A stretch of DNA of 60,413 bases from Gekko japonicus. Its lineage: Eukaryota. The notes under the pieces were generated by a model, which was not told the DNA's origin, ran no database searches, and saw only the letters and a program-made list of their open reading frames with translations. This document shows, in pieces, positions 36,640 to 37,513 of this stretch (position 1 is its first letter; each line of letters opens with the position of its first letter). The stretch is taken from assembly GCF_001447785.1 (NCBI RefSeq), contig NW_015176023.1, positions 324,365 to 384,777 of the forward strand, in the 5' to 3' direction. The translations under genes and the position numbers were made by a program.

Positions 36640-36649
36640 CTGTGTGGGG

Positions 36650-37213
36650 AGAAGAAGAAGAAGAGATTGGATTTCTACCCCGCCCTTCACTTGGAGTCTC
36701 AGAGCGGCTTACAAGCTCCTTTCCCTCCCCCTCCCCACCACAGACACCGTGAGGTGGGTGGAGCTAAGAGAACTCCGACACAAACTGCTCTTTTTCAAGG
36801 ACAGCTGTGCCAGAGCTTGTGACTGACCCAAGGTCACACCAGCAGGTGCAAGTATAGGAGTGGGGAATCAAACCCAGTTCTCCCAGATTAGAGTCCGCGC
36901 ATTTAACCACTACACCAAAGAAGAAGAAGAGGAGGAGATTGGGTTTATACCCCATGGCCCTTGACTACCCAAAGGTGTCTCAGAGCGGCTTACAAACTCC
37001 TTTCCCTCCCCCTCCCCACGACAGACACCCCCTGTGAGGTGGGTGGGGCTGAGAGAACTCTTGACAGAAACTGCTCTTTTCCAAGGACAGCTGTGCCAGA
37101 GCTTGTGACTGGCCCAAGGTCACACCAGCAGCTGCAGGTGGAAGAGTGGGGGAATCAAACCCGGTTCTCCCAGATTAGAGTCTGCGCAGTTAAACCACGA
37201 CACCAAACTGGCC
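36650..37213 (-). mobile_element. Two tandem Squam3-like SINEs (36650-36918 and 36919-37213)
   Basis: Head-to-tail copies, each with A and B boxes and a (ctt)n tail. Confidence 0.9.
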
Positions 37214-37513
37214 CGGCGGCTGCGTCAGCCGGGGTGGCGGCTCCTCTCTCCCTCCCTCTCTCCGCCGCCGCTTCCTTCGCCTCTTCCCGCCGTTGCGCGG
37301 CCCAGAAGCCCCCTCCCGGCCGCAGGGCAGCGCGCATGCGCGTCGGGAGGGCGTGTCCGAGACGGCTTCCGTACGGCAAGATGGCGCCTCGCGGGCGCGG
37401 ACGGGGGCGGCCATGGGCGGAGGAGAGCGGCCGTTGGTGACGGCGACGAGCGAGGCTCTTTTCCTGGGCGACGGCCTCCCGGGGACGCCGGCCGCGCGGG
37501 CGGGCGAAGGAGG
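37214..37513. promoter_or_regulatory. CpG-island bidirectional promoter for TUBG1 and RETREG3
   Basis: CpG-dense; NRF1 site gcgcatgcgc 37332-37341; YY1 site caagatggcg 37377-37386; GC boxes. Confidence 0.8.

What the first reader, a model, noticed from the sequence alone, without database searches (positions are those of the whole stretch)
36640..37513. Gamma-tubulin exon 1 is missing; two tandem SINEs occupy its place
Seen: TUBG1 exons 2-11 are open and correctly phased. Between the exon 2 acceptor (36640) and the shared CpG island there are only two head-to-tail SINEs (36650-37213), and I found no MPREIITLQLGQCGNQ exon in this interval or elsewhere in the window. Known: that exon carries the start codon and the GTP-binding GQCGNQ loop, and gamma-tubulin is essential. 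Inference: most likely an assembly mis-join between near-identical SINE copies, since the same SINE breaks the assembly at 10253. A real SINE-mediated deletion would be remarkable. One phase-compatible route exists on paper (ATG at 37414, donor ttg|gtgtcg in the SINE head near 37204, spliced to exon 2), but it would lack the GQCGNQ loop.
Basis: partly seen in the sequence, partly recalled or inferred. Interest (0 to 1): 0.75.

Follow-up and report, generated by a model that had tools for sequence, protein, structure and literature searches.

The report
Gecko gamma-tubulin exon lost in assembly
The first coding exon of a gecko's gamma-tubulin gene is missing from this draft sequence, most likely because GC-rich DNA at the gene start dropped out of the assembly, and the two repeats beside it look like ordinary intron insertions.

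Summary
Observation confirmed. TUBG1 exons 2-11 are intact (431 of 434 readable residues match the Pogona/python protein). No exon-1 peptide exists in six frames. Two head-to-tail gecko SINEs lie at 36650-37213. The gene is conserved, single-copy in the window and transcribed, so the exon almost certainly exists in the animal: artefact about 0.88.

The copies are 91% alike with six gaps, and such tandems are common in this genome. A GCCGCCACC with no ATG behind it lies at 37241-37233, at the edge of a 73-80% GC island. About four RNA reads cover 37252-37298 and, by depth arithmetic, do not all continue into the SINE. This suggests the omission lies just after 37233.

That location is indirect. 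The one read-laying run was swamped by SINE reads and showed no exon 1-exon 2 junction, so exon 1 itself was never seen. The ATG-37414 route has no support. A real deletion is not excluded (about 0.06 as one allele, 0.03 species-wide).

The parts
22111..22308 (-). TUBG1 exon 11 (coding part, with stop)
22578..22739 (-). TUBG1 exon 10
23245..23397 (-). TUBG1 exon 9
24341..24490 (-). TUBG1 exon 8
24672..24758 (-). TUBG1 exon 7
25496..25622 (-). TUBG1 exon 6
31960..32039 (-). TUBG1 exon 5
33321..33389 (-). TUBG1 exon 4
33596..33763 (-). TUBG1 exon 3
36527..36639 (-). TUBG1 exon 2, phase-1 acceptor; covered by RNA reads at summed depth about 6.5-7.5
   Evidence: (X21)
36640..36649 (-). last 10 nt of intron 1 with the AG acceptor
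   Evidence: junction with the SINE tail confirmed by X1 contig 36521-36672, 0 differences
36650..36919 (-). SINE copy B, Squam3-like, 270 nt, (CTT)n tail, first ~9 nt of head missing; 95% like the copy at 24772-25054
   Evidence: (loose-end consensus at 36919)
36920..37213 (-). SINE copy A, Squam3-like, 294 nt, near-full head, (CTT)n tail joined directly to copy B
37214..37232 (-). 19 nt of unique GC-rich sequence; inferred remnant of intron 1 on the far side of the omission
   Evidence: sequence; role inferred
37233..37241 (-). GCCGCCACC, Kozak-like, no ATG behind it; inferred edge of the missing piece
   Evidence: 12 such motifs in the window, none followed by ATG, so weak alone
37233..37298 (-). 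probable TUBG1 5' UTR; about 4 RNA reads cover 37252-37294 and end near 37298; strand of the RNA not settled
37299..37374 (.). probable bidirectional promoter core in the CpG island, with palindrome GCGCATGCGC at 37332-37341 (NRF1-type motif, name recalled); almost no RNA depth
37375..37749 (+). RETREG3 (FAM134C) exon 1, ATG at 37514, head to head with TUBG1
   Evidence: (X4 contig 37375-37749)

Best explanation
The animal has an ordinary TUBG1: 5' UTR from about 37298 to 37233, then ATG and the 49-nt coding exon 1, a GT donor, and an intron 1 that holds two Squam3-type SINEs before the exon 2 acceptor. The draft assembly joined two unique GC-rich stretches without a gap and dropped the ATG, the exon and the start of the intron, somewhere between 37233 and the SINE head at 37213. 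The SINE pair is an ordinary intronic tandem, probably copy B inserted into the (CTT)n tail of copy A. SHOWN: exon absent from the window; exons 2-11 intact and conserved; exon 2 transcribed; SINE B-acceptor junction real; island 73-80% GC. INFERRED: that exon 1 exists, where the omission lies, and the order of SINE insertion. Artefact of any kind (this plus rival 1): about 0.88.
For: 431 of 434 readable residues identical to squamate gamma-tubulin, all splice sites canonical. One set of exons only in the window. GQ[CA]GNQ present in 75 of 80 distant eukaryote loci; 4 of the 5 misses do not cover the N-terminus. Tubg1-null mice die at the blastocyst stage (PMC3250491, passages). RNA on exon 2. 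GC 0.73-0.80 from 37200 to 37800 against 0.47-0.61 below. DNA run X22 has zero depth over 37295-37724, P 0.07 at 0.76x, and X1 has holes there. RNA reads at 37252-37298 have an estimated mean left end of 37234-37242; all four reaching the SINE head has P 6e-7 to 3e-4, stopping at 37233 has P 0.34-0.42. No GT on the minus strand between 37310 and 37209, so a canonical splice does not explain the stop. Missing first exons and GC-rich 5' ends are the commonest false losses of older assemblies (PMC9516821, passages). 16 of 21 listed bird models also lack this peptide (a biased set).
Against: Exon 1 was never seen. No genome is held, and the loose ends at 36639 and 37233 were not among the rows shown (1377 loose-end rows and 693 joint rows hidden). 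There is no N at the inferred join and no repeat that would explain a collapse there. The location rests on about 4 reads, possibly duplicates, of unsettled strand. One or two reads running through while the rest stop fits equally well (P 0.15-0.88). So do two short overlapping pairs, or a plus-strand AG at 37228. The read filter drops human-like records silently, so the DNA holes prove nothing. Two X22 reads touch 37252-37294 and may run on into the SINE. No gecko gamma-tubulin record came up to compare.
Confidence: 0.65

Rival explanations
1. Assembly collapse between SINE copies: exon 1 lies between two copies, or between the halves of what is now one hybrid copy, and was lost when they were merged.
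For: About 180,000 Squam3B3 copies are reported for Gekko japonicus (PMC7983390). The assembly breaks inside this SINE at 10253. No contig or listed read spans the pair.
Against: A and B are 91% alike with 6 gaps and a longest exact run of 30. A collapse would leave one hybrid copy, not two. It needs a SINE between the promoter and the ATG. Tail-to-body tandems are common here: 522 and 241 X22 reads on two such joints, a second pair at 10036-10252, and sSat3 tandems described for this species (PMC10702118). The RNA reads appear to leave the assembly before the SINE head.
Confidence: 0.23
2. A real deletion allele: insertion of copy A, or recombination between copies, removed exon 1 on one chromosome of the sequenced animal, and the assembly shows that null haplotype while the other is intact.
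For: No N at the join. No target-site duplication around the pair (longest shared word 3 nt). Squam3 rarely has duplications (PMC7983390), so insertion with local loss is conceivable (inference).
Against: Lack of a duplication is the family norm and so says little. An insertion-linked deletion would put the break at the SINE head (37213), which the RNA arithmetic disfavours. A null allele of an essential gene should be rare (inference).
Confidence: 0.06
3. Species-wide loss: this locus makes a gamma-tubulin with a new N-terminus (ATG 37414 spliced at 37204), or is a decaying copy covered by a second TUBG locus.
For: The route is phase-compatible (211 nt). A 24-nt stretch at 37225-37202 matches codons 7-14 with 4 mismatches, joint best in the window. 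A second locus could not be searched for.
Against: Near-perfect conservation of exons 2-11. Zero X21 depth over 37338-37380, between that ATG and the donor. Non-consensus donor GTGTCG. The 70-residue frame has no Pfam match. The motif is kept in 75 of 80 distant loci. The 24-nt match was picked by eye first, all four mismatches change the residue, half of it is SINE head consensus, and the full 16 codons in that register have 19 mismatches of 48.
Confidence: 0.03
4. Exon 1 exists but lies elsewhere: outside the window, or misplaced into one of the N gaps.
For: The three N runs (440, 35, 65 nt) cannot be read.
Against: None of the gaps lies between exon 2 and RETREG3. The CpG island, the UTR-like RNA coverage and the head-to-head layout place the start at 37233-37298.
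Confidence: 0.03

Closest known systems
Vertebrate TUBG1 (gamma-tubulin 1); nearest record P0126, Pogona vitticeps / Python bivittatus
   Same: 431 of 434 readable residues over exons 2-11; phase-1 start of exon 2 at residue 17; head to head with RETREG3 and tail to tail with a MyTH4-domain gene (the name PLEKHH3 and the mammalian gene order are recalled).
   Different: Residues 1-16 and the start codon are absent from the assembled sequence. One copy in the window, whereas mammals have a tandem pair (PMC3250491).
'Missing exon' false gene loss of older assemblies (Kim et al. 2022, PMC9516821)
   Same: First coding exon, CpG island, GC above 70%, draft with N gaps; the class is reported as among the most frequent false losses.
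   Different: Here there is no N at the site, and no long-read assembly was available to prove the loss false.
Squam3 SINE, subfamily 3B3 of Gekkonidae, and its tandem derivatives sSat3 (PMC7983390, PMC10702118)
   Same: About 270-290 nt, (CTT)n tail, no target-site duplication, very high copy number, head-to-tail arrangements.
   Different: Not aligned to the published consensus. The pair is two near-full copies, not an array of partial units; the paper found no true dimeric Squam SINE that amplifies as a dimer.

Membership tests
gamma-tubulin (TUBG1) | sequence identity to gamma-tubulin across the fold | tested here: met
   431 of 434 readable residues vs P0126; P0126 matches solved gamma-tubulins over 1-451
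gamma-tubulin (TUBG1) | open frame and canonical splice sites, exons 2-11 | tested here: met
gamma-tubulin (TUBG1) | N-terminal start and GQCGNQ motif encoded | tested here: not met
   absent from the assembled window; read as a fault of the assembly, not shown to be one
gamma-tubulin (TUBG1) | transcribed | tested here: met
   X21 summed depth about 6.5-7.5 on exon 2. X4 shows no contig on exon 2; the silent filter may explain that, untested
gamma-tubulin (TUBG1) | canonical exon 1 spliced to 36639 in RNA | tested here: inconclusive
   the relevant loose-end rows were not shown
Squam3 (3B3) SINE | length near 270 nt with (CTT)n tail | tested here: met
   270 and 294 nt with tails; 271 nt and (CTT)n in Table 1 of PMC7983390
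Squam3 (3B3) SINE | very high copy number in a gekkonid genome | tested here: met
   depth up to about 20,000 against about 1 on unique DNA in X22; 7 copies or fragments in the window
Squam3 (3B3) SINE | target-site duplication usually absent | tested here: met
Squam3 (3B3) SINE | alignment to the published consensus, CORE fragment and L2-like 3' end | not tested
false exon loss in a draft assembly | GC-rich 5' position | tested here: met
false exon loss in a draft assembly | exon present in reads or in a long-read assembly of the species | not testable with these tools
   no genome held; the single read-laying run was uninformative on this point

The most novel reading that the evidence does not exclude
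The loss is real and fixed: this gecko makes a gamma-tubulin whose first 16 residues, including the GQCGNQ loop, are replaced by a promoter- and SINE-derived N-terminus, or relies on an unseen second locus, while exons 2-11 stay almost unchanged.
Probability: 0.03. Interest if true: 0.85.

Novelty: not a real feature. Interest (0 to 1): 0.07.

Why it matters
As an artefact it matters only as a caution: a draft can drop a GC-rich first exon with no N to mark the place, and nearby repeats then look like the cause. If the loss were real and fixed, it would be a vertebrate gamma-tubulin without a motif found in 75 of 80 distant eukaryote loci, and would make the need for that loop directly testable.

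Tried and rejected
No whole genome is held, so a second TUBG locus and unplaced contigs could not be searched.

Read laying (window 36521-37800, 4 of the 24 listed runs): swamped by SINE reads. No joint 37204-36639 and no loose end at 36639 or 37233 is among the rows shown, but 693 joints and 1377 loose ends were hidden, so this is no evidence either way.

Protein searches for a gecko gamma-tubulin record (best 120 of 2446 and of 337) and cluster look-ups (15 listed of 832) showed none.

A 32-nt UTR pattern had 0 matches in metagenome contigs. The related-locus scan gave only distant loci, at most 84% identical, with no reptile context.

Degenerate remnant of exon 1 at 37225-37202: judged chance. 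The Kozak-like motif alone is weak: 12 in the window, none followed by ATG. The bird count, 16 of 21, comes from cluster representatives outside the main cluster and is enriched for faulty models; it shows recurrence, not frequency. The bacterial promoter scan does not apply.

Earlier findings: nothing returned in 5 look-ups. Paper search 'gecko' + 'TUBG1' returned 2 papers, both cancer studies by their listing; no report of this loss was found in that one search. PMC10707541 gave no passage on the motif, so the GTP-binding role of GQCGNQ is recalled, not checked.

Full report
OBSERVATION. TUBG1 lies on the minus strand. Exon 2 is 36639-36527 behind ccccacacag and starts in phase 1, as expected after a 49-nt first coding exon. 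Exons 2-11 have canonical ends and read to a stop. Against P0126, a 451-residue record named for Pogona vitticeps and Python bivittatus, 431 of 435 positions are identical. The rest are the split codon 17 and N84K, M413I, I427V, each a common state in other vertebrates. Residues 1-16 are not in the window: the motif scan, tblastn and a codon-level scan found only chance-level matches. Of the 120 homologues listed, 76 contain the start of exon 2 and 69 of these carry the canonical 17 residues before it. Two copies of one SINE family lie head to tail at 36920-37213 (A) and 36650-36919 (B).

ORGANISM AND CONTEXT. The head-to-head neighbour matches a RefSeq record 'protein FAM134C [Gekko japonicus]' at 100% over exon 1; the next gecko is at 74%. 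That protein maps along 37514-48071 in 8 blocks. The published draft of this species was made from Illumina reads with SOAPdenovo and SSPACE, contig N50 21,073, genome 2.55 Gb (PMC4673495, passages of main text and supplement). The window, with three N runs, is consistent with such a draft; I do not claim more. Downstream of TUBG1 lies a MyTH4-domain gene on the plus strand. Only one set of gamma-tubulin exons is in the window. A second locus elsewhere could not be searched for.

THE SINES. Length (270 and 294 nt), (CTT)n tail and lack of target-site duplication fit Squam3B3, reported at about 180,000 copies in G. japonicus (PMC7983390, part 1 of 4 of the text and passages). I did not align them to the published consensus. 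A and B are 91.1% alike with six gaps and differ in a 6-nt indel that splits the window's copies into two groups; B is 95.2% like the copy at 24772-25054. They are not near-identical. B lacks about 9 nt of head and follows A's tail directly. The same pattern, a truncated copy behind another's tail, occurs at 10036-10252. In raw DNA reads at about 0.76x, 522 and 241 reads show two tail-to-body joints from other loci (X22). Squam3-derived tandems are described as abundant in this species, and SINEs are said to form occasional tandems, though no Squam SINE that amplifies as a dimer was found (PMC10702118, passages and Discussion). The simplest reading, inferred, is that B inserted into A's tail inside intron 1. 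A 185-nt DNA contig matches 36521-36672 with no difference, so B's tail beside the acceptor is real (X1). No listed contig spans the pair.

WHERE THE PIECE IS MISSING. GC rises from 0.47-0.61 to 0.73-0.80 at 37200. The RETREG3 contig of X4 begins at 37375. In RNA run X21 one mate class has depth 4.00 over 37252-37294 and 0.4 over the next bin, so about four reads end near 37298. In the bin below (37209-37251) depth is 4.56, most of it spill from SINE heads of other loci. Scaling that spill from the other mate class and from X22 leaves 38-72 bases for the four reads, a mean left end of 37234-37242. All four reaching the SINE head has P 6e-7 to 3e-4; all four stopping at 37233 has P 0.34-0.42. 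At 37241-37233 the minus strand reads GCCGCCACC with no ATG behind it, and there is no GT between 37310 and 37209 to explain a stop by splicing. This fits a 5' UTR of about 65 nt whose ATG, exon and intron start were dropped. The limits are real. There are about four reads, perhaps duplicates, and their strand is not settled. One or two reads running through while the others stop fits as well (P 0.15-0.88), as do two short overlapping pairs or a plus-strand AG at 37228. The motif occurs 12 times in the window and never before ATG. The direct test failed: the tables were filled by SINE reads, and 1377 loose ends and 693 joints were not shown. DNA coverage is thin over the island (X22 zero over 37295-37724, P 0.03-0.18 for 1.0-0.5x; holes in X1), but the tool's silent filter can cause such holes.

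WHY A REAL LOSS IS UNLIKELY. Exons 2-11 are almost unchanged, and exon 2 carries RNA at summed depth about 6.5-7.5 in X21, though X4 shows no contig there. GQ[CA]GNQ is present in 75 of 80 distant eukaryote loci; four of the five misses match only from residue 32 or later, and one search pattern overlapped the motif's last two residues. Tubg1-null mice stop at the morula/blastocyst stage, and the TUBG1/TUBG2 pair is a mammalian duplication (PMC3250491, passages). That the motif binds GTP is recalled; PMC10707541 gave no passage on it. A 24-nt stretch at 37225-37202 resembles codons 7-14 with 4 mismatches, joint best in the window. I picked it by eye first, half of it is SINE head, all four mismatches change the residue, and the full 16 codons in that register mismatch at 19 of 48, so I treat it as chance.

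COMPARISON WITH WHAT IS KNOWN. Missing exons are among the most frequent false gene losses of older assemblies, with missing sequence peaking at the transcription start, 5' UTR and first exon and tracking GC content (PMC9516821, passages). The same peptide is lacking in 16 of 21 bird gamma-tubulin models listed here; these are representatives outside the main cluster and so enriched for faulty models. One paper search for 'gecko' with 'TUBG1' gave two unrelated listings. Supplements of the SINE papers, which may hold the consensus, were not read.

VERDICT. The absence is real in the sequence but most likely not in the animal: artefact 0.88 (omission in unique GC-rich DNA 0.65, SINE collapse 0.23), real single-allele deletion 0.06, fixed loss 0.03, exon elsewhere 0.03. 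Exon 1 itself was not seen, so the artefact is inferred, not shown. Interest 0.07.

Noticed in passing
window 36640-36650 and 24759-24772: Two of the ten TUBG1 acceptors (exons 2 and 7) have a sense-oriented Squam3-like (CTT)n tail ending only 10 and 13 nt before the exon, so the SINE tail may serve as the polypyrimidine tract.
   Followed up: partly
window 10036-10252: Second head-to-tail pair of the same SINE: a 5'-truncated copy directly behind the tail of another, running into the 440-N gap.
   Followed up: partly
window 37225-37202 (minus) and 37135 (plus): The SINE head and body resemble gamma-tubulin codons 7-16 by chance (4 mismatches of 24 nt each), which can mimic an exon remnant.
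   Followed up: yes
window 37419, 37606, 37609: The RETREG3 contig of run X4 differs from the window by a 3-nt deletion in the 5' UTR and two substitutions in exon 1: polymorphism or assembly errors in the CpG island.
   Followed up: no
window 36316-36518, 8056-8258, 11974-12176: A different repeat family of about 200 nt, three copies 91-93% alike; one ends 9 nt below the exon 2 donor.
   Followed up: no
window 2029-3510 and about 27400-29900 (minus): Retroelement remains: a 493-codon frame with a reverse transcriptase match and LINE-like broken frames inside TUBG1 intron 5 (the class is read by eye).
   Followed up: no
window 15444-16019 and 58052-58444: MyTH4-domain exon on the plus strand (PLEKHH3 by recalled synteny) and a plus-strand frame recalled as PSMC3IP/HOP2-like in a second CpG island (not tested).
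   Followed up: no
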